From the IMG/VR virus record IMGVR_UViG_3300035646_000027: a stretch of 5,642 nucleotides of DNA, one strand, 5' to 3'. The translations under genes were made by a program, and so were the position numbers. The stretch's first letter is position 1. Every line of letters starts with the position of its first letter. Source of the stretch: a virus. This document shows positions 1 through 5,642 of the stretch, piece after piece. Under the pieces are notes generated by a model that was not told where the DNA came from, made no database searches, and worked only from the letters and a program-made list of their open reading frames with translations.

Positions 1-79
1 TTTGAAGTTGTCCCATAGGATTCTATTAGGACAAAAGAAGTAGTAAAAATCGATGTATGCATCATCGAAAACAGGATAT
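1..79. repeat. Terminal direct repeat, identical to 5564..5642. It is the assembly overlap of a circular genome whose unit length is 5563 nt.
   Basis: Base-by-base, 1..79 (tttgaagttgtcccatagg...caggatat) equals 5564..5642. The VP1 reading frame runs through this junction without interruption. Confidence 0.93.
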
Positions 80-273
80 TTCGGTGTGGTCATTCGGATG
101 ATTGCCGCCGTATTTACGCTGAATGTATCGCCTGGAAGAACCTCATCGACGTAAAACGGGATGAGTTTTCCTGCGTCAAAGGTAGTGAGAATGTTCTGGT
201 CCCGTTTGAAACGTGTCCGGCTCACATGTGTCTGCGGTACGTTGTTAAAGTGTCGCTCATTATTCCGGTTCAT
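1..273 (-). CDS. VP1: N-terminal 91 codons of VP1. The ATG is at 273..271 and the segment is joined across the circular junction to 4157..5563.
   Basis: Hand translation of the minus strand in the same 3k+1 frame gives MNRNNERHFNNVPQTHVSRTRFKRDQNILTTFDAGKLIPFYVDEVLPGDTFSVNTAAIIRMTTPKYPVFDDAYIDFYYFFCPNRILWDNFKYF. An upstream in-frame stop lies at 360..358. The SD AAGGAGA sits 6 nt before the ATG (plus-strand tctcctt at 281..287). Total VP1 is 1680 nt, 559 aa. Confidence 0.85.
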   Translation of the reverse strand, partial: MNRNNERHFNNVPQTHVSRTRFKRDQNILTTFDAGKLIPFYVDEVLPGDTFSVNTAAIIRMTTPKYPVFDDAYIDFYYFFCPNRILWDNFK

Positions 274-655
274 TGCTCTTCTCCTTTTCTGCAGATACTT
301 CTGTAACTTTTTTCTGCTTTCGTTGGATTTCCATTGCCGTGGCTTGTGCTGTTGCGATCATAGCGTGATACTCGTGAATGTTTGTAGGCCACTCCGTAAT
401 ATCAATGGTTTCGTCCGTTTTTGCGCTGTCTACCAGACTTTTGGCAAACTCAGGGTCAAAGCTTGCTTTGCGGACAATGCTTTTGATGTCGCACTCGTCT
501 GCATAGCTCTCGATTTCGGCCTGAATGTCGATTGGTTCGGTTTCAATCAGCTTATTATTGCCTTTTTCGTCCTTGCCCCATACGTACTGCTTTCGCAGTT
601 TTTCGCCTGGATTTGAAAAGAAGGGCTTTCGCCCTTCCTCGTATCGTTTATTCAC
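260..655 (-). CDS. Hypothetical acidic protein of about 131 aa (MNKRYEEGRKPFFSNPGEKLRKQYVWGKDEKGNNKLIETEPIDIQAEIESYADECDIK...EKEKSNEPE). It is a possible internal scaffolding protein (VP3-like) given its acidity and its position directly upstream of VP1.
   Basis: This is the C-terminal two-thirds of track ORF 260..835. A GTG at 655..653 is preceded by the SD GGGAGG with a 9-nt spacer and overlaps the stop of the 80-aa ORF, which suggests translational coupling. The TAA stop at 262..260 lies 11 nt inside VP1. The functional assignment is inferred only. Confidence 0.45.
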   Translation of the reverse strand: MNKRYEEGRKPFFSNPGEKLRKQYVWGKDEKGNNKLIETEPIDIQAEIESYADECDIKSIVRKASFDPEFAKSLVDSAKTDETIDITEWPTNIHEYHAMIATAQATAMEIQRKQKKVTEVSAEKEKSNEPE

Positions 656-890
656 GCGGCTTGCCCTCCCATACCTTATCCGGCTCGATTTTCTCAAACT
701 CGCCGTTTTCATCGTTGAAGTTTGCGATGTGGTAGCCCTTGTAGTCCTCAGGCGACTGCCCAAGGAAGGTCTTTTCGTCCTTTGCCATGATATTGCACAT
801 CCGGGCAAAGGTTTCGTTGCTCTTGCTTTCACCAATGTAGCAATAGTTCTTTGCTACGCTGTCGTAGATGCCATAGTATTCGTGAATCAT
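648..890 (-). CDS. Hypothetical protein of 80 aa (MIHEYYGIYDSVAKNYCYIGESKSNETFARMCNIM...).
   Basis: The ATG at 890..888 has a strong SD AAGGAG 7 nt upstream. The composition is protein-like, in contrast with the overlapping alternate frame. The TAA stop at 650..648 overlaps the GTG start of the downstream ORF. Confidence 0.55.
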   Translation of the reverse strand: MIHEYYGIYDSVAKNYCYIGESKSNETFARMCNIMAKDEKTFLGQSPEDYKGYHIANFNDENGEFEKIEPDKVWEGKPRE

Positions 891-902
891 GTTTTTTCTC
901 CT

Positions 903-1022
903 TTACAGTCTGATGCCGCCCCGCATGGGTTTCTGGCTCAGGTTGATACTTTTCGTCTTGCGTGCCGTCACGTTGAACATTCGCTTGTCAGTGCGTCCAG
1001 GCATCCGCTGTCTGTGCTTCAT
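903..1022 (-). CDS. Small highly basic protein of 39 aa (MKHRQRMPGRTDKRMFNVTARKTKSINLSQKPMRGGIRL, net charge about +11). It is a probable DNA-binding / packaging protein analogous to phiX174 J and to gokushovirus ORF8.
   Basis: Hand-translated; this ORF is not in the ORF track. The ATG is at 1022..1020 with the SD AAGGGAG 7 nt upstream (plus-strand ctccctt at 1030..1036). The TAA stop is at 905..903, 12 nt before the next gene's ATG. The size, the Arg/Lys richness and the position upstream of the capsid module match microvirus J-like proteins. Confidence 0.5.
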   Translation of the reverse strand: MKHRQRMPGRTDKRMFNVTARKTKSINLSQKPMRGGIRL

Positions 1023-1233
1023 TTGTGTACTCCCTTCGCATTAGTTCCAGTTGGATATCGTTTGCCCATGCTTTCATAATCCAAATTCGGTCAACAATTT
1101 TTTTTGCGTCCTCAATGTTGGATATTTTTTTGAGCATTTTATACCCGGCTTCGATTTCTTTGTATAACCTATCTGCTTCAATTCGTAAATTTTTTTCGGT
1201 CTGGTCTCTGACTTGCCATGTCTTATGTAACAC
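988..1233 (-). CDS. Hypothetical protein of 81 aa, helical and charged.
   Basis: The track ORF starts at GTG (plus-strand cac at 1231..1233). The SD GGAGGAG lies about 13 nt upstream. The frame is open upstream to 1284 with no ATG. The next in-frame ATG is at codon 33 (MLKKISNIEDAKK...). No similarity was recognised. The 3' end overlaps the J-like ORF by 35 nt. Confidence 0.45.
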   Translation of the reverse strand: MLHKTWQVRDQTEKNLRIEADRLYKEIEAGYKMLKKISNIEDAKKIVDRIWIMKAWANDIQLELMRREYTNEAQTADAWTH

Positions 1234-1238
1234 TGTCT

Positions 1239-1343
1239 TTACTTCTCCTCCTTCAGAATGTGGTAAATCTGGTCCAGCCTCTCAAGTACAGTTTTAATTA
1301 GCTGGATTGCTTCCCGCAGGTCTTTAACCTTAATCAGTGCCAT
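1239..1343 (-). CDS. Small hypothetical protein of 34 aa (MALIKVKDLREAIQLIKTVLERLDQIYHILKEEK), predicted amphipathic helix.
   Basis: This ORF is not in the ORF track because it is too short. The ATG at 1343..1341 lies 3 nt after the peptidase TAG stop. The SD AAGGGGGT is 8 nt upstream (plus-strand accccctt at 1351..1358). The TAA stop is at 1241..1239, and the 3' end (aaggaggag) provides the SD for the next ORF. Confidence 0.35.
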   Translation of the reverse strand: MALIKVKDLREAIQLIKTVLERLDQIYHILKEEK

Positions 1344-1346
1344 TGG

Positions 1347-1730
1347 CTATACCCCCTTTCTGTATCGTTTTTCACGCACATCTACGTGCGTAAAATTTGT
1401 GTATCTGATTACTCCGCCCTGTTCCATAATGCTGTCTGCGTATTTTGCGACTTCTCCGCTGTTGTGTCCTTTCACTACGATATCTGCTGCCATACCTTTG
1501 CAGTGGTAACTGTTTGATGCTCCGTTTACTTTGCTGTTCCAGCTTGGTGTACGGTATCCGCTGTTGATGATGACTGGTGCGTTGAAGTGGTTTCTGATTG
1601 TTTCCAAGATTTCGAGTAGTTCAGGTGCCCACAAGAATTCTTTTGTTTTGTCTTTGCATCTAAACTCCTCTGCTTTGAAGTGCTGCGTTAATCGGTCGTT
1701 GTTTGTTTGGTTTAAGATTGCTGTACTCAT
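1347..1730 (-). CDS. Zinc D-Ala-D-Ala carboxypeptidase-like peptidase of the Peptidase_M15 family (YcbK/VanY-like). It is the probable cell-wall lysin.
   Basis: 127 aa. The M15 signature is FKAEEFRCKD ... INSGYRTPSWNSKVNGASNSYHCKGMAADI ... FTHVDVR, with the H-x6-D and H-x-D zinc ligands. There is no signal peptide or TM segment. The SD GAGGTGG is 7 nt upstream (plus-strand ccacctc at 1737..1744). This is the first gene after the intergenic promoter. Confidence 0.85.
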   Translation of the reverse strand: MSTAILNQTNNDRLTQHFKAEEFRCKDKTKEFLWAPELLEILETIRNHFNAPVIINSGYRTPSWNSKVNGASNSYHCKGMAADIVVKGHNSGEVAKYADSIMEQGGVIRYTNFTHVDVREKRYRKGV

Positions 1731-1751
1731 TTTTTACCACCTCTTGTTTTT

Positions 1752-1780
1752 TTTATATCATGCCCGGCTTGATAAGTCAA
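1752..1780 (-). promoter_or_regulatory. Sigma70-like promoter driving the minus-strand operon (peptidase and the genes downstream of it).
   Basis: The minus strand reads cccTTGACTtatcaagccgggcaTGaTATAAAaaaaacaagaGGTGGtaaaaaATG. The -35 is TTGACT, the spacer is 17 nt, and the extended -10 is TGnTATAAA. The predicted TSS is near 1745, about 15 nt upstream of the peptidase ATG. The upstream region is A/T-rich with phased T-tracts. Confidence 0.45.
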
Positions 1781-1831: not shown

Positions 1832-1988
1832 TTTTCAACATTTTCAACGTAGTTTTCAACATTTAAACATTGTTAAACTTTAACACAATAAAGTGTTTCA
1901 ACAATTCAACAAGTTTTAAACAAATCTTTCAACATTCTTTTTAGTGCTTTTTCTTCGTATCAATGTAAAGAAAAAGCACTTTTCAACT
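1832..1988. repeat. Iteron-like array of at least 7 copies of TTTCAAC(A) plus 3 degenerate TT(A)AAC(A) copies. It contains phased T-tracts at a period of about 10-11 bp, which predicts curved DNA.
   Basis: Plus-strand copies occur at 1832, 1841, 1853, 1896, 1905, 1926 and 1981, with degenerate copies at 1862, 1871 and 1914. Two of them form the 9-mer CAACAAGTT (1907, 2016). On the coding strand the unit reads GTTGAAA(A). Confidence 0.5.
1943..1980. repeat. Perfect 13-bp inverted repeat (AGTGCTTTTTCTT / AAGAAAAAGCACT) with a 12-nt loop. It forms an AT-rich hairpin inside the iteron region.
   Basis: The arms are 1943..1955 and 1968..1980, perfectly complementary. The loop is cgtatcaatgta. Confidence 0.6.
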
Positions 1989-2043
1989 TTTCCACATACT
2001 CTACTACTACGACTACAACAAGTTATATAATAAAGGCAAAGCG

Positions 2044-2097
2044 TTATCCCTTGAAGCGAAGCGAATAGGGATTACAGGGTAGAACGTACTCCCTATT
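2044..2097. repeat. Cluster of alternating-orientation 7-mers (TATCCCT > ATAGGGAT < TCCCTAT) able to form two mutually exclusive hairpins. The first loop contains the tandem GAAGC GAAGC.
   Basis: 2046..2051 atccct pairs with 2067..2072 agggat (loop tgaagcgaagcgaat). 2064..2071 aataggga pairs with 2090..2097 tccctatt (18-nt loop). Confidence 0.5.
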
Positions 2098-2101
2098 TTA
2101 C

Positions 2102-2140
2102 CGTGCGCGTGTACGCGCGTTTCGCGCGTGCGCGTGCGCG
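2102..2140. repeat. GC-rich alternating purine-pyrimidine tract, (GCGCGT)n-like, with Z-DNA potential. It folds as a hairpin with an ACGCGCG-TTT-CGCGCGT core stem.
   Basis: The perfect 7-bp stem is 2113..2119 / 2123..2129 with a 3-nt loop. It can extend to 2102..2140 with G:C pairs interrupted by T/G mismatches. It is a roughly 80% GC island in an otherwise AT-rich intergenic region. Confidence 0.55.
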
Positions 2141-2164
2141 GTCTAACGCCTTAAGAATACGCTT

Positions 2165-2207
2165 AAATCAATAAAAGCCCAGTACCTTACTTGATAGGTA
2201 CTGGGCT
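2165..2207 (-). terminator. Rho-independent terminator downstream of VP4, marking the end of the VP1-VP2-VP4 transcription unit.
   Basis: On the minus strand, 13 nt after the VP4 TAA, AGCCCAGTACC-tatcaagtaa-GGTACTGGGCT forms a perfect 11-bp stem with a 10-nt loop, followed by TTTATTGATTT. Confidence 0.55.
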
Positions 2208-2219
2208 AGGTAACACCAA

Positions 2220-3239
2220 TTACAAAATACCACGTTTTTTCGTTTGTTTTTTGGTGACACGTTCTTTGGTCTCTAAGACGGTTTTATAGTCTTGATTCTC
2301 TAGCTGTAGTCTCTTTTCTTTCATTGCGTTTTTTTGTCGGTTTTGCTTAATTCTCCACAATCTTTGTGGGTTTTCTGCTTCCATCTGTTTTTCATAGTAT
2401 CTTGGAATTTGTGCCCGTTTTCCGTTGACGCATTGAATGTAACCTTGTCGCCAGATTTCCGCTTTGTGCTCTTGATAGTAGTGGTCTCCAAGTCCTGGCT
2501 TTAAGCTCATGCAAGCAAATGGTTTTGTTTGCCCTAGTTCATAGTACGAATTAGCTTTTTTGCCGTCTATTTCGTACATTTTTTTTGTAACGTATCCTGC
2601 AACATATCGATACGTTTCTGGAACTGCTTGTGCTATCTGGATTTGTCCCATTCCCCACAGGTCTGCTAACCATTTACTGGTATAGTATCCGTTGTGGTGA
2701 ATTTTGTACAGATTTTCTAGGTCTGTTGGTTTCCAGCCGTATAGTATCATATGGTAGTGTGGCCTTGCTGTCTGTTCTCCGTACTCACCCGCCACAAAAT
2801 AGCGTAATTTGCCCTTGTAAGCCTTCCTGAGGCGTTTTAAGAATTTTTGAATATCTTCATACAGCAAAATTTGAACACTGCTAGGGCGCTTCTTTCCCGG
2901 CTTCCACGTGTATTGTACCTTTCGCATGATTTCCCCAGTTTTTACTATCATGCCCGGTACATGTTCATCATCATAAGTTAGTGTTATAAACCAAACTTCT
3001 TCTTTTGGATAGTCTCGCGCCTCAAGCTCTATGCGTGTTGTCCAGTCCTCTCGTTGTCTAATTCTGCATCCGATACATTGCCCGCATGGAATCAACATGA
3101 CTTTTGGATTATACATCAAATCTTCATATCTCAGCTGTTTCCCGCTTAACTGAGAAAAGCGGGCGAGTGAATATACCCGCCCGCTCTGTTCTCTATCATC
3201 CGGGTTGTACAGCCTTATTAGCGGCTTGTAACAACTCAT
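2220..3239 (-). CDS. VP4: Replication initiation protein VP4, an HUH rolling-circle endonuclease related to phiX174 gene A protein.
   Basis: 339 aa. It has a CxxC zinc-finger-like motif (PCGQCIGCR), motif [11 protein letters not shown], motif [10 protein letters not shown] and motif [14 protein letters not shown] (compare phiX174 A protein YVAKYVNK, with two catalytic Tyr). A weak SD GGGTGA lies 9 nt upstream. The ATGA overlap with VP2 indicates translational coupling. Confidence 0.9.
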
Positions 3240-4099
3240 TTCAGATAATCACCCGGCTTTCTCTTCTCTCCGTATTTTCCTGTCTTGTCCTGCGGGTTCA
3301 TTGCTCTGTTTTCTTTGTTTTTCGGTTTCGGAGTTGGCACTGTCTGTTCGGTCTTTTCCATCTGCTTATAGGTTTTGAGCAAATCTTCTGTCAGCTGCAC
3401 TGGACTACTATAGCCTGTGCTCATTTGACTGCCTACGGCTTCTGCCAGCTGATACCATTGTGATTTACTTTCACTTCGGCTGTAGTAACTGTTTGGCACG
3501 TTGCCGTTTAGCGTAGACACTCCCAGTGCGCTTGACGCTGGCATTCCCATGCTTGCGCCTGTAATTGTTGCGCCTGCGCCCCCTGGCGTGCTTGCTCCAC
3601 CCTGTGCGTATGCTAGAATTGGGTTCAGCCCGGCTTTTCGCATGTCTTCTACTGTTCTTTGGTATGCTGTATTGCTCATGCGCTCTTGGAATTGTCTGTT
3701 TGCTAGCGCTTCGGCTGAATTGTATGCCATTGCTGCGTTGTTTTCTATGTGGTTGTAAATGCCCTGTTGAATTGCTGATAACGTATTATAGCCCATTTGC
3801 ATTAACATATTTTGGCGGTTCGTTTTGCTTTGGAAGGTATTCTGCCCGCTCTGCCACTCATAGTATTTGTTGAGGTAATCCATGATTTGCTTGTCGTTTG
3901 TTCCTCCTTCGCTCATGGATGTACTCTGTCCCCCGCCTTGGCTTTGGCTCATGTTGCTACCTTGGCTCTGGTTCTGGCTTTCCTGTCCAAACATGCTTGA
4001 TAGGCCGTTTCCTATCAGTGACATTCCTGTTGTTACGATTTCTGGATGACTTGCTAGCCATGTTCCAGCGCTTGTTAACATTGCTCCTAGTCCTGCCAT
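3236..4099 (-). CDS. VP2: Minor capsid / DNA pilot protein VP2.
   Basis: The 287-aa ORF lies immediately downstream of VP1. It has a low-complexity Q/G/S/N/M-rich segment ([26 protein letters not shown]) and the segment [37 protein letters not shown], which resembles the conserved core of gokushovirus VP2. Its TGA stop overlaps the VP4 ATG (ATGA). Confidence 0.8.
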
Positions 4100-4139
4100 A
4101 ATCTAAAGTAGCCCGCAATAATGCGGGCTTCCTCCTTTC
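4100..4139 (-). promoter_or_regulatory. Structured leader between VP1 and VP2. A strong SD AAAGGAGGA lies 31 nt upstream of the VP2 ATG, and an 8-bp hairpin (AGCCCGCA-ttat-TGCGGGCT) occupies 20 nt of the spacer.
   Basis: The minus strand reads taa-aaattgtacaaaaaaacgaaaGGAGGaAGCCCGCAttatTGCGGGCTactttagattATG. The stem is 4110..4117 / 4122..4129. There is no other SD near the VP2 start. Confidence 0.4.
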
Positions 4140-4156: not shown

Positions 4157-5642
4157 TTAGAGTTTCTCAAGCCCTGGTACGCTGTAGAGAGGAATGCAGC
4201 GCGTTGTATTGTTCATTACTCGAATCGCTCCAAAAAACTGCGGTTCGTCCTGAACGATTAGCGTCCTTGCAATTTCTGTTTTGCCCTCGCTCATCCACTC
4301 TTGACTTAGTGTCGGCACTTTGTCGTATTTGTCCGCATAGTGCCAGAAGTCCAGCGTTCCATCTGCGTTACTGCGCATTTTACCACTTACCCTGTCCGGC
4401 TTCATGCGATAGTCTGCCCAGGCTTCCTGATAACCGAAGGTCTCATTATCTGTGCTCGTGCCAGTCAACATGATTTCTTTTTTCTTGACAGGCTGTTCGC
4501 CAATATTTGCGAACTGCGGGAAATAGAAGTCCAGTCTGTCTGAACGGCTCCAGAAGCGTTCAAGGCCCTGCTGATAGCTTCTGTTATGACGTACACACAT
4601 GACACCGATAACAAATCCGTGTTCCTCAAAGCTCTTTGTGAAACTGCTTTCGTTGATAGGTGTTACCGACATTGCACCCGTTTCACCAATAGGCGTGTCG
4701 TTTGCGGTCTGCTGTCCGCTGGTCTGCACGATTTGGTTAATATTTACGTGATAGCGTCCGCCACCCAGATATTCAGGTACCTGAACCGTTTTATCGCTGA
4801 TGCTTACGCCAAAAATTGCACGTACCTGCTCGCGGTAGCGACTGCCGCCGCGTGCCAGCGCTTCGTAATAGTGTTGAACTGCAAAAGCTTGCCGTAGCTG
4901 GTTGATGGTGATTCCTGATACGTTGCTTAGGTCTGTTGCCAATGTTGCAATGTTTGCGTCTGTGCTTCCGCTTGCTGATGCTCCATTGATTTGCGCCGCG
5001 TTTTTCACTGGGTTATTCAAATAATTGTTGTTTTCAATAAATGGTGTTGCGCCGCCGATGCCGTTTAGCCAAATTCTGTCTGCTACGTCTTCACCAGTGA
5101 CATTTGTTACTCTCACTGGTGCTTTTCCTGCAATTCCGACTGCTACTTCCGGCCCTCTCTGCGGATACGGCAGACAGCTTGTAAAGTAGTCGTGGAATTT
5201 TGAGACCGGGAGACAGCGCCCGCCTGCAATTGCTTTCAGTAAGGTATTTTCTTCCTTTTCTTCTCCTTTTGGGTCGTCTCGATATTTTATATCTTCATCA
5301 TCTGTTTTGAATAGCGCTGCATTTCCTACGTTCTGATCTCTGAAGAATTCGTTCCAGATTTTAACGTATGCTCTTACTGGTAGTGCATTGATTTCTACTC
5401 TCCTGTTTTCCTCGTGACTGAATATTTTTGTGGGTACTCCCATGTAGTCAAGGATTGATTCTTCGAAAGGTACTGCATCTTGCGGCGATTCGATTATGAT
5501 TTTTGGCACTCTGTAGGTTTTTTCCGGTTCCCACGGTGTTTGCTCTACTTCACCCATGAAGTATTTGAAGTTGTCCCATAGGATTCTATTAGGACAAAAG
5601 AAGTAGTAAAAATCGATGTATGCATCATCGAAAACAGGATAT
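4157..5642 (-). CDS. VP1: Major capsid protein VP1 (Microviridae F-like jelly-roll capsid). This segment runs from the junction to the stop codon, and the gene continues upstream into 1..273.
   Basis: Six-frame ORF 4157..5557, 466 aa. The minus frame stays open upstream through 5558..5642, reading ...YPVFDDAYIDFYYFFCPNRILWDNFKYF-MGEVEQ.... The motifs YVKIWNEFFRDQN, RFWSRSDRLDFYFPQF and a G/S/N-rich variable insertion are typical of gokushovirus VP1. The TAA stop is at 4159..4157. Confidence 0.9.
   Translation of the reverse strand, partial: YPVFDDAYIDFYYFFCPNRILWDNFKYFMGEVEQTPWEPEKTYRVPKIIIESPQDAVPFEESILDYMGVPTKIFSHEENRRVEINALPVRAYVKIWNEFFRDQNVGNAALFKTDDEDIKYRDDPKGEEKEENTLLKAIAGGRCLPVSKFHDYFTSCLPYPQRGPEVAVGIAGKAPVRVTNVTGEDVADRIWLNGIGGATPFIENNNYLNNPVKNAAQINGASASGSTDANIATLATDLSNVSGITINQLRQAFAVQHYYEALARGGSRYREQVRAIFGVSISDKTVQVPEYLGGGRYHVNINQIVQTSGQQTANDTPIGETGAMSVTPINESSFTKSFEEHGFVIGVMCVRHNRSYQQGLERFWSRSDRLDFYFPQFANIGEQPVKKKEIMLTGTSTDNETFGYQEAWADYRMKPDRVSGKMRSNADGTLDFWHYADKYDKVPTLSQEWMSEGKTEIARTLIVQDEPQFFGAIRVMNNTTRCIPLYSVPGLEKL
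5564..5642. repeat. Second copy of the 79-nt terminal redundancy (circular permutation overlap).
   Basis: Identical to 1..79. Position 5564 corresponds to position 1. Confidence 0.93.

What the first reader, a model, noticed from the sequence alone, without database searches (positions are those of the whole stretch)
1347..1730. Peptidase_M15-type zinc D,D-peptidase as the first gene after the promoter: an enzymatic lysin in a microvirus with no recognisable holin or amurin
Classical microviruses lyse with a small membrane amurin (phiX174 E) that blocks MraY and encode no muralytic enzyme. This genome instead encodes a cytoplasmic M15 peptidase with the signature EFxC...SGYR...SYHxxGxAxD...HVD. 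It has no signal peptide, and none of the small neighbouring ORFs (34, 81, 39 or 80 aa) has a hydrophobic transmembrane segment. How the enzyme reaches the peptidoglycan is therefore unexplained. Possibilities include a host Sec/holin-independent route, one of the amphipathic small ORFs acting as a membrane disruptor, or a non-lytic role. Peptidase M15 genes have been noted sporadically in metagenomic microviruses, but their mechanism is uncharacterised.
Basis: partly seen in the sequence, partly recalled or inferred. Interest (0 to 1): 0.65.

Follow-up and report, generated by a model that had tools for sequence, protein, structure and literature searches.

The report
Holin-less M15 lysin in gut gokushovirus
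This small circular ssDNA phage genome carries an intact zinc cell-wall peptidase of the kind tailed phages use to burst their hosts, but no membrane "holin" to let it out; the gene has been known in gut microviruses since 2012, while how the enzyme reaches the wall is still unknown.

Summary
Window 1347-1730 (minus strand) encodes a 127-aa single-domain Peptidase_M15_3 (Pfam E=4.6e-25; PHROG "endolysin" 1e-35). The metal and catalytic residues H76, D83, H115 and D117 are invariant, and a pLDDT-95.8 model has the LAS fold. The window is a complete 5,563-nt circular gokushovirus.

The protein has no signal or SAR segment. No coding-strand ORF in this genome, in-line or overprinted, reaches TM-like hydrophobicity. 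The same holds for 95 peptidase-bearing relatives.

The gene itself is not new. Roux et al. 2012 described M15_3 peptidases in human-gut gokushoviruses and proposed an endolysin role, and many GenBank microviruses annotate it.

New here:
- The holin-less state is lineage-wide.
- The 34-, 81- and 39-aa neighbours also occur in peptidase-less relatives, so they are core genes, not peptidase partners.
- Peptidase-less relatives instead carry small TM proteins or a true LL-H-type holin.
- Tailed-phage homologues sit beside holins.

Best reading: this is the phage's lysis enzyme, acquired as half of a lysis cassette. Its route across the membrane is unresolved. It is a new member of a known kind, of moderate interest.

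The parts
1347..1730 (-). Gene for a 127-aa single-domain zinc peptidase, Peptidase_M15_3 (LAS fold); the putative endolysin. Predicted metal/catalytic residues are H76, D83, H115 and D117. No signal peptide, SAR segment or wall-binding domain.
1752..1780 (-). Sigma-70-like promoter: -35 TTGACT (1780-1775), 17-nt spacer, -10 TATAAA (1757-1752). Sequence pattern only; conserved upstream of the peptidase in both peptidase subgroups.
1737..1743 (-). Shine-Dalgarno sequence GAGGTGG, 6 nt upstream of the peptidase ATG.
2176..2207 (-). Intrinsic-terminator-like hairpin (12-bp stem, then TTTATTG) just after the VP4 stop. It marks the end of the upstream transcription unit, so the peptidase is the first ORF of the next one.
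1239..1343 (-). orf34: a 34-aa peptide predicted as one amphipathic helix. Its ATG lies 3 nt after the peptidase stop, in the same frame (TAG CCA ATG), so it is translationally coupled. It is a lineage core gene also found in peptidase-less relatives, so it is not a peptidase-specific partner. Function unknown.
988..1233 (-). orf81: a conserved helical 81-aa core protein of unknown function (invariant K-x-W-x-x-RDQ motif). Context only; also present without the peptidase.
903..1022 (-). orf39: a very basic 39-aa protein (pI 12, phrog_10695), probably a J/VP8-like DNA-binding protein. Context only.

Best explanation
The ORF encodes a catalytically intact, single-domain zinc M15_3 (LAS-fold) peptidoglycan peptidase. 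It was acquired horizontally from the lysis modules of tailed phages or Firmicutes, and it is the lysis effector (endolysin) of a large lineage of gut gokushoviruses.

It is probably transcribed from a conserved sigma-70-type promoter as the first gene after the VP4 terminator. It has a strong Shine-Dalgarno site and is translationally coupled to orf34.

It is made as a soluble cytoplasmic protein. The phage encodes no holin, pinholin, SAR or signal sequence, spanin or E-like amurin, so lysis works with only the endolysin half of the classical cassette.

Shown here: family membership, conserved active-site residues, the fold (as a prediction), absence of any TM ORF, lineage-wide conservation at a fixed locus, and holin-adjacent homologues in tailed phages.

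Inferred: that it cleaves mature murein, that it causes lysis, and how it gets across the membrane. My guess for that last step is a non-dedicated route: leakage or host-dependent export, followed by runaway wall damage once the membrane is compromised late in infection. No phage-encoded pore would be needed.
For: - Family, residues and fold.
- Homologues of 45-47% identity in Proteus phage BigMira and Vibrio phage D478 are annotated endolysins sitting next to holins.
- About 100 of 108 genomes of the lineage carry the gene at the same locus, between the VP4 terminator and orf34, in two sequence subgroups (60-92% and about 45% identity). This implies sustained selection.
- None of 95 complete peptidase-bearing genomes has an in-line TM ORF at KD19 >= 1.5, apart from a terminator-spanning artefact. 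Controls score 1.61-2.79.
- Membrane lysis-type proteins appear where the peptidase is absent. KT264788 and KT264789 have a 38-aa TM protein plus a 27-aa hydrophobic ORF; MG945780 and MG945381 have the 27-aa ORF; Clostridia-MAG prophages have a Phage_holin_6_1 holin. This fits the two being alternative lysis solutions.
- The literature proposes the same role (PMC3394797; PMC9239249; PMC11499846; 10.1101/2022.02.15.480533).
- An M23 peptidase from a picobirnavirus lyses E. coli when expressed alone (PMC10500164).
Against: - No experiment exists on this protein or any microvirus M15 peptidase.
- A soluble cytoplasmic endolysin normally cannot reach the wall without a holin (established for lambda R and T4 E; my background knowledge). 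The central step is therefore unexplained.
- The peptidase/TM-protein exclusivity rests on few peptidase-less genomes, roughly 2-3 independent lineages.
- The host is unidentified, so whether it has one membrane or two is unknown.
- Bond specificity is unknown.
Confidence: 0.6

Rival explanations
1. Endolysin plus a cryptic phage-encoded membrane disruptor that has no classical TM helix. The candidates are the translationally coupled amphipathic orf34 helix, acting as an oligomer, or the glycine-rich hydrophobic N-terminus of the VP2 pilot protein inserting from inside the cell. Either would serve as the holin equivalent.
For: - orf34's ATG lies -1 to +4 nt from the peptidase stop in nearly all of about 100 genomes.
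- A natural in-frame peptidase-orf34 fusion exists (P0033).
- orf34 is predicted as one long helix with a high hydrophobic moment (muH 0.68, above the melittin and magainin controls).
- The VP2 N-terminus is the most hydrophobic in-frame segment of real genes in the lineage (KD19 0.95-1.5). Its phiX174 analogue H forms a membrane-spanning tube (background knowledge).
Against: - orf34, orf81 and orf39 are also conserved in relatives without the peptidase, so orf34 is not peptidase-specific.
- orf34 has net charge +1 and mean hydrophobicity about 0, which looks like a coiled coil, not a lytic peptide.
- In the fusion model the helix hangs on a disordered linker and pTM falls from 0.89 to 0.71, so no docking is predicted.
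- Tight gene packing and coupling is normal in microviruses.
- No VP2 segment reaches TM threshold.
Confidence: 0.15
2. An 'enzymatic amurin'. The peptidase never leaves the cytoplasm. It cleaves the peptide stem of soluble or lipid-linked wall precursors (UDP-MurNAc-pentapeptide, lipid I/II, or D-Ala-D-Ala). Wall synthesis is starved and growing cells lyse, as with phiX174 E, Q-beta A2 or the levivirus M Sgl protein, but by catalysis instead of inhibition.
For: - It explains directly why no signal, holin or spanin is needed.
- It fits the single-gene-lysis logic of very small phages.
- The LAS/M15 clan includes cytoplasmic enzymes that act on precursors; VanX and VanXY are among the structural neighbours.
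- The gene is promoter-proximal with a strong SD, which suits an enzyme that must outrun precursor synthesis.
Against: - The closest characterised-context relatives are tailed-phage endolysins encoded beside holins.
- Such endolysins usually accumulate harmlessly in the cytoplasm until the holin fires (background knowledge).
- The nearest cellular homologues are secreted, multidomain wall hydrolases with PG_binding_1, SH3_3 or GH25 modules.
- There is no direct evidence.
Confidence: 0.1
3. A virion-associated entry enzyme. A few copies are packaged or capsid-bound and locally open the peptidoglycan during DNA delivery, as with cystovirus P5 or PRD1 P7. Lysis would be achieved in some other way.
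For: A virion-delivered enzyme arrives from outside the cell, so it needs no export signal. Virion-associated lysins are common in other phage families (background knowledge).
Against: - Peptidase-less sister genomes have the same structural gene set, so the enzyme is dispensable for the virion plan.
- The gene sits in the non-structural small-gene block, and the T=1 capsid has little spare volume (background knowledge).
- The apparent complementarity with TM and holin proteins points to egress.
Confidence: 0.07
4. A non-lytic or passenger role, for example wall remodelling, superinfection effects, or a decaying horizontally acquired gene.
For: The closest GenBank genome, MT135277 (an UNVERIFIED record), has the peptidase split across frames, so loss or decay does occur.
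Against: Active-site residues are invariant and the gene is retained at a fixed locus in about 100 genomes of only 5.5-6 kb. That argues strongly for a selected, important function.
Confidence: 0.05

Closest known systems
M15_3 peptidases of human-gut Gokushovirinae and Alpavirinae (Roux et al. 2012, PMC3394797; GenBank KX513877, KT264792, MG945781 and others)
   Same: Same Pfam family, same virus group, same habitat and same proposed endolysin role. KT264792 and MG945781 are 61-68% identical and syntenic.
   Different: Nothing categorical; this is a new species-level genome (best whole-genome hit 77% identity over 65%). Roux et al. did not examine the missing holin or the conserved neighbours.
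Single-domain M15_3 endolysins of tailed phages (Proteus phage BigMira gp47, Vibrio phage D478 gp37)
   Same: About 45-47% identity, the same bare catalytic domain of about 120-140 aa, and annotation as endolysin.
   Different: Those genes lie beside annotated holins. The microvirus has none.
Streptomyces albus G zinc D-Ala-D-Ala carboxypeptidase (PDB 1LBU), the LAS prototype
   Same: Best sequence and fold match among solved structures (phmmer 8.4e-5; profile 9e-12; Foldseek 2.6e-5, probability 1.0). The SxH-x6-D segment aligns residue for residue.
   Different: Only 28% identity over 92 columns. 1LBU is a secreted 213-aa enzyme with an extra N-terminal domain. Bond specificity cannot be transferred.
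phiX174 protein E and other single-gene-lysis amurins
   Same: Same biological problem: lysis by a very small phage genome with one gene and no holin-endolysin pair.
   Different: E is a 91-aa membrane protein (KD19 2.79) overprinted in gene D that inhibits MraY. Here there is an enzyme, no membrane protein, and no conserved overprinted ORF.
Holin-independent endolysins (SAR or signal-peptide endolysins; M4Lys of phage BSPM4, PMC7143992; Enc34 endolysin with a C-terminal TM domain, PMC8943055)
   Same: Endolysins that work without a separate holin.
   Different: Each carries its own hydrophobic export or membrane segment. This protein has none.
Picobirnavirus M23 peptidase lysin (Gan & Wang 2023, PMC10500164)
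   Same: A wall peptidase in a minimal viral genome that lyses E. coli when expressed alone.
   Different: Different peptidase family (M23), a dsRNA virus, and its export route is likewise uncharacterised.

Membership tests
Peptidase_M15_3 (PF08291) / MEROPS M15, LAS zinc peptidases | Profile match above the curated threshold across the whole domain | tested here: met
   88.3 bits against 23.2, profile positions 2-108 of 108; phrog_894 at 1e-35
Peptidase_M15_3 (PF08291) / MEROPS M15, LAS zinc peptidases | Zinc-binding and catalytic motif H-x6-D ... H-x-D, plus the SGYR arginine | tested here: met
   H76, D83, H115, D117, R60 and S57 are invariant in 35 diverse homologues. H76 and D83 align to 1LBU residues 154 and 161; that these are its zinc ligands is from memory.
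Peptidase_M15_3 (PF08291) / MEROPS M15, LAS zinc peptidases | LAS fold | tested here: met
   AlphaFold2 model with pLDDT 95.8 and pTM 0.89. Foldseek top hits are 1LBU, then hedgehog-N, VanXY, VanY, Ply500, ChiX and LysB4. The structure is predicted, not solved.
Peptidase_M15_3 (PF08291) / MEROPS M15, LAS zinc peptidases | Zinc-dependent hydrolysis of a peptidoglycan peptide bond, and which bond | not testable with these tools
Needs enzyme assays and muropeptide LC-MS.
Canonical holin-endolysin(-spanin) lysis cassette | Muralytic enzyme | tested here: met
Canonical holin-endolysin(-spanin) lysis cassette | Small membrane protein (holin or pinholin) with at least one TM helix encoded in the same genome | tested here: not met
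   The highest KD19 of any coding-strand ORF of at least 20 aa is 1.22, and that ORF is not conserved. None in 95 relatives. No Pfam or PHROG holin hit. Positive controls are detected.
Canonical holin-endolysin(-spanin) lysis cassette | Spanin (a lipoprotein or type II membrane protein), for hosts with two membranes | tested here: not met
   No ORF has a signal- or TM-like N-terminus. A dedicated lipobox search was not run.
SAR / signal-peptide endolysins | N-terminal hydrophobic signal or signal-anchor-release segment on the enzyme | tested here: not met
   The highest 10-residue KD in the first 30 residues is -0.07. Longer gene calls in relatives only add hydrophilic extensions. SignalP and DeepTMHMM were not available.
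Single-gene-lysis amurins (phiX174 E type) | Small membrane protein, often overprinted in another gene, that blocks a wall-synthesis step | tested here: not met
   The alternate-frame ORF in VP1 (4465-4629) is broken by stops in about half of relatives and has no conserved start. Antisense ORFs are not conserved.
Gokushovirinae (genome context) | VP1 (Phage_F), VP2 pilot, VP3 scaffold (Chlamy_scaf), VP4 Rep and VP5 on one strand of a circular genome of about 4.5-6 kb | tested here: met

The most novel reading that the evidence does not exclude
The peptidase is a catalytic 'amurin'. It stays in the cytoplasm and destroys peptidoglycan precursors (UDP-MurNAc-peptide, lipid II or D-Ala-D-Ala), so a whole lineage of ssDNA phages lyses its hosts with one soluble enzyme and no membrane protein. 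More broadly, endolysin-only phages (this clade, and RNA phages with M15, M23 or M35 genes) may share an undescribed holin-independent way of reaching or starving the wall.
Probability: 0.12. Interest if true: 0.75.

Novelty: new member of a known kind. Interest (0 to 1): 0.36.

Why it matters
Gokushoviruses are among the most abundant gut phages, yet nobody knows how they lyse their hosts. This genome belongs to a lineage of at least about 100 sampled genomes that keeps an intact endolysin-type peptidase and no membrane protein of any kind. Sister genomes carry a small TM protein or a true holin and no peptidase. That contrast turns a vague annotation ('peptidase, maybe lysis') into a testable question: can a soluble 14-kDa M15 enzyme cause lysis from within on its own, and by what route? 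An answer would extend the single-gene-lysis paradigm and could yield a compact lysin that needs no holin. As a gene discovery it is ordinary, because the gene class was published in 2012.

Tried and rejected
1. Overprinted E-like gene in VP1 (window 4465-4629, minus strand, +1 frame). It is hydrophobic in some relatives (KD up to 2.3), but about half of 49 relatives have stops inside or beside the hydrophobic stretch, and the starts are not conserved. Rejected.

2. ORF spanning the VP4 3' end and the terminator (2168-2260, minus strand; 30 aa here, 50-59 aa with GTG start in 11 relatives, KD 1.5-2.95). Its conservation is explained by the terminator hairpin. The hydrophobic run is only about 9 residues, and the ORF is truncated in the window. 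Rejected.

3. Long hydrophobic antisense ORFs (161-616 and 525-1079, plus strand). They are stop-free in only 13 of 101 and 57 of 98 relatives. Rejected.

4. Programmed read-through from the peptidase into orf34. The in-frame arrangement occurs only in the window's subclade, most stops are TAA, and the other subclades use the +1 or +2 frame. Rejected as a conserved mechanism.

5. orf34 docking on the enzyme. The fusion model gives a free helix on a disordered linker. No support.

6. A hidden signal peptide in longer gene calls of relatives. The extensions are hydrophilic. Rejected.

7. Host identification via VP1 in 185,579 species-representative genomes. The single-sequence scan found nothing. 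The alignment scan found only distant relatives (32-50% identity) and one 5.8-kb same-lineage contig binned with a Prevotella MAG, which is unreliable. Host unresolved.

8. Rfam and tRNA scans found nothing.

9. Literature searches for an experimental study of microvirus peptidase export or a holin found none in the held library.

Full report
WHAT THE WINDOW IS. Bases 1-79 repeat exactly at the 3' end, so the window is a circular genome of 5,563 nt. All real genes lie on the minus strand:
- VP1 major capsid protein, 559 aa, from 273 wrapping round to 4157 (Phage_F, E=3.7e-106)
- VP2 pilot protein, 3236-4099 (phrog_8742)
- VP4 replication initiator, 2220-3239
- a 489-nt intergenic region
- the 127-aa ORF in question, 1347-1730
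- orf34 (1239-1343), orf81 (988-1233) and the very basic orf39 (903-1022)
- VP5 (648-890, Phage_ORF5)
- the VP3 scaffold (about 260-655, Chlamy_scaf)
This is a gokushovirus. The best whole-genome match in GenBank phages is only 77% identical over 65% of the genome (porcine MT135277), with further hits from pig, human and monkey faeces.

The ORF matches Pfam Peptidase_M15_3 end to end (88.3 bits; cut-off 23.2) and PHROG 894 'endolysin' (1e-35). I aligned it with 35 single-domain homologues of 40-63% identity, drawn from a family of 10,905 50%-identity clusters. In that alignment F18, E22, S57, R60, N65, S74, H76, G79, A81, D83, G106, H115 and D117 are invariant. H76 and D83 align to positions 154 and 161 of the S. 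albus zinc DD-peptidase 1LBU; that those are its zinc ligands is my recollection of the LAS literature, not a tool result. An AlphaFold2 model is confident (pLDDT 95.8, pTM 0.89). Its best solved-structure match is 1LBU, followed by hedgehog-N, VanXY, VanY, Ply500, ChiX and LysB4, which together make up the LAS superfamily. No close M15_3 lysin has been solved.

NO EXPORT SIGNAL AND NO MEMBRANE PROTEIN. The enzyme's N-terminus is hydrophilic (highest 10-residue Kyte-Doolittle mean -0.07). Its highest 19-residue window is 0.56, and the four small neighbours score 0.70, 0.40, -0.55 and -0.07. By the same measure phiX174 E, lambda S105, MS2 L and an LL-H-type holin score 1.61-2.79. Across every minus-strand ORF of at least 20 aa in the circularised genome, the maximum is 1.22. 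That ORF is in the +1 frame inside VP1, and it looked promising because it reaches 1.9-2.3 in some relatives. In a 49-genome VP1 codon alignment, however, it is interrupted by stops in about half of the genomes and has no conserved start. It is a by-product of VP1 conservation. The long hydrophobic antisense ORFs are not conserved either. SignalP and TMHMM-class predictors were not available, so these conclusions rest on hydropathy with positive controls.

THE HOLIN-LESS STATE IS LINEAGE-WIDE. Close homologues (73-94% identity) occur on hundreds of contigs of about 5.5 kb. I collected about 108 genomes of the lineage from IMG/VR and GenBank. The gene order peptidase-orf34-orf81-orf39-VP5-VP3-VP1-VP2-VP4 is constant. 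About 100 of these genomes carry the peptidase, in two sequence subgroups (60-92% and about 45% identity to the query). I screened 95 peptidase-bearing genomes at KD19 >= 1.5. The only recurrent in-line hit is a GTG ORF that runs out of VP4 through the terminator hairpin. It has only about 9 consecutive hydrophobic residues, is present in 11 genomes, and is truncated to 30 aa in the window, so I regard it as an artefact.

WHAT THE NEIGHBOURS ARE NOT. orf34 is indeed a single long amphipathic helix (muH 0.68; helix pLDDT 90-96). Its ATG sits -1 to +4 nt from the peptidase stop in almost every genome, and one relative (P0033) has the two fused in frame. Against that, orf34-, orf81- and orf39-like genes are all present in relatives with no peptidase (KT264788, KT264789, MG945780, MG945381, MT135259). 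orf34 is nearly neutral. In the fusion model it hangs on a disordered linker without docking. These three ORFs are core genes of the lineage with unknown function, not peptidase-specific partners. The in-frame TAG-CCA-ATG junction is confined to the window's subclade, and most stops are TAA, so read-through is not a conserved mechanism.

WHAT REPLACES THE PEPTIDASE ELSEWHERE. The peptidase-less genomes are where hydrophobic small proteins appear:
- KT264788 and KT264789 have an in-line 38-aa protein with one strong TM helix and a basic tail between orf39 and VP5 (KD 2.3). They also have a conserved 27-aa hydrophobic ORF in the VP4-orf34 slot.
- MG945780 and MG945381 have the 27-aa ORF.
- More distant gokushovirus prophages (VP1 35-38% identity), integrated in 82-157-kb Clostridia MAG contigs, carry a true Phage_holin_6_1 protein (28.7 bits against a cut-off of 24.9; phrog_6918 at 2.7e-11) and no peptidase.
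- In tailed phages, the 45-47%-identical homologue sits next to annotated holins.
Microviruses thus seem to take one half or the other of the classical cassette. This supports a lysis role for the peptidase. The number of independent peptidase-less lineages is small (about 2-3), so the exclusivity is suggestive and not yet statistical.

EXPRESSION AND HOST. After the VP4 stop comes a strong terminator-like hairpin (2207-2176). About 400 nt further on there is TTGACT-17 nt-TATAAA (1780-1752), then GAGGTGG 6 nt before the ATG. The -35/-10 pair is conserved upstream of the peptidase in both subgroups. Most genes have strong Shine-Dalgarno sequences. Sigma-70-type promoters and strong SD use argue against a Bacteroidota host; this is an inference from general knowledge. 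The nearest cellular homologues (48-55% identity) are multidomain hydrolases with GH25, SH3_3, PG_binding_1, or dockerin plus Listeria-Bacteroides-repeat modules, one of them from an Eubacteriaceae MAG. This echoes the Firmicutes affiliation reported by Roux et al. 2012. The host remains unidentified.

COMPARISON WITH WHAT IS KNOWN. Roux et al. 2012 (PMC3394797) found M15_3 peptidases in 5 gut gokushoviruses and 6 alpaviruses, showed horizontal acquisition, noted holin-adjacent homologues in prophages, and proposed an endolysin role. Kirchberger et al. 2022 list peptidases as recurrent lysis-associated accessory genes. Marine Occultatumvirinae isolates carry M15 genes. [quoted passage not shown] None of the papers I could read addresses how the enzyme crosses the membrane. 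A picobirnavirus M23 peptidase lyses E. coli when expressed alone.

VERDICT. The feature is real and the enzyme annotation is secure. The interpretation as the phage's lysis enzyme is the best supported (about 0.6). The membrane-crossing step is open. The rivals are a cryptic non-TM partner (0.15), cytoplasmic precursor cleavage (0.10), an entry enzyme (0.07) and a non-lytic role (0.05). It is a new member of a known kind. Its interest lies in the now well-documented, lineage-wide lack of any membrane partner, and in the contrast with holin-only and TM-only sister genomes.

Noticed in passing
window 1833-1988 (minus strand): Six to seven direct copies of GTTGAAA(A) are confined to the VP4-peptidase intergenic region, with none elsewhere on that strand. 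The stretch 1776-2070 is 79-86% conserved in otherwise diverged microviruses (MG945781, KT264793, MT135268). These may be regulator- or Rep-binding sites, or stacked -35-like elements.
   Followed up: partly
window 2040-2215 (minus strand): There is a cluster of stable hairpins on the packaged (coding-sense) strand: the terminator hairpin 2176-2207, a GC-rich alternating purine/pyrimidine palindrome 2100-2142, and a hairpin at 2064-2097. Folded as ssDNA it gives -41.1 kcal/mol, z = -5.1 against shuffles. It is a candidate complementary-strand origin or primosome-assembly-type site.
   Followed up: partly
L117 6664-6993; L116 1036-1383; also L119: Gokushovirus prophages integrated in long Clostridia MAG contigs (Ca. 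Caccovivens faecavium and uncultured Clostridia) encode a Phage_holin_6_1 (LL-H-type) holin, with no M15 peptidase and no endolysin noticed among their ORFs. These are 'holin-only' microviruses, and they are evidence that gokushoviruses lysogenise Firmicutes.
   Followed up: partly
L060 (KT264789) 4545-4661 and 3636-3719; L065 (KT264788) 4756-4872 and 3690-3773; L061 1174-1257; L062 1188-1271: Peptidase-less relatives carry an unannotated 38-aa single-TM protein with a basic tail (MNIMIAVGTGATIIAMCSAAFALIAMGIDIIKNWRKSK). They also carry a conserved 27-aa hydrophobic ORF (MLNTINFYPWNDILWIILMLILLWITC). Both are candidate E-like lysis proteins.
   Followed up: partly
P0033 (167 aa, from a 1.4-kb contig); L034 near 678: P0033 is a natural in-frame fusion of the peptidase to orf34, in which the stop has become Q and the orf34 ATG is lost. 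In L034, orf34 has ATA instead of ATG, in frame after a TAA stop.
   Followed up: partly
L003 (MT135277, closest GenBank genome) about 5420-5566 and 31-305: The peptidase homologue is split across at least two reading frames and is unannotated. This is either a pseudogene or a sequencing error in an UNVERIFIED record.
   Followed up: no
window 1-79 and 5564-5642; VP1 at 4157..5563 then 1..273: A 79-nt terminal redundancy shows the window is a circular assembly. The VP1 gene wraps round the ends, so the listed 466-aa ORF is truncated; the true VP1 is 559 aa and starts at 273.
   Followed up: yes
window 653-655 (minus strand): VP3 most likely starts at a GTG at 655 (SD GGGAGGG upstream; 131 aa), overlapping the end of VP5. 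This fits better than the 191-aa TTG ORF or the ATG at 712, and it matches the VP5/VP3 overlap annotated in KT264792.
   Followed up: partly
window 4110-4129 (minus strand): A second terminator-like hairpin (AGCCCGCATTATTGCGGGCT) lies between VP1 and VP2, immediately upstream of the VP2 ATG. VP2 has no obvious Shine-Dalgarno sequence.
   Followed up: no
L114 (CALBJK010000280, 5,840 nt): A complete same-lineage microvirus genome (peptidase 64% identical, with orf34, orf81 and orf39 present) is binned inside a 'Prevotella sp.' MAG. This is probably a binning artefact, given the sigma-70 promoter and SD usage of the lineage.
   Followed up: no
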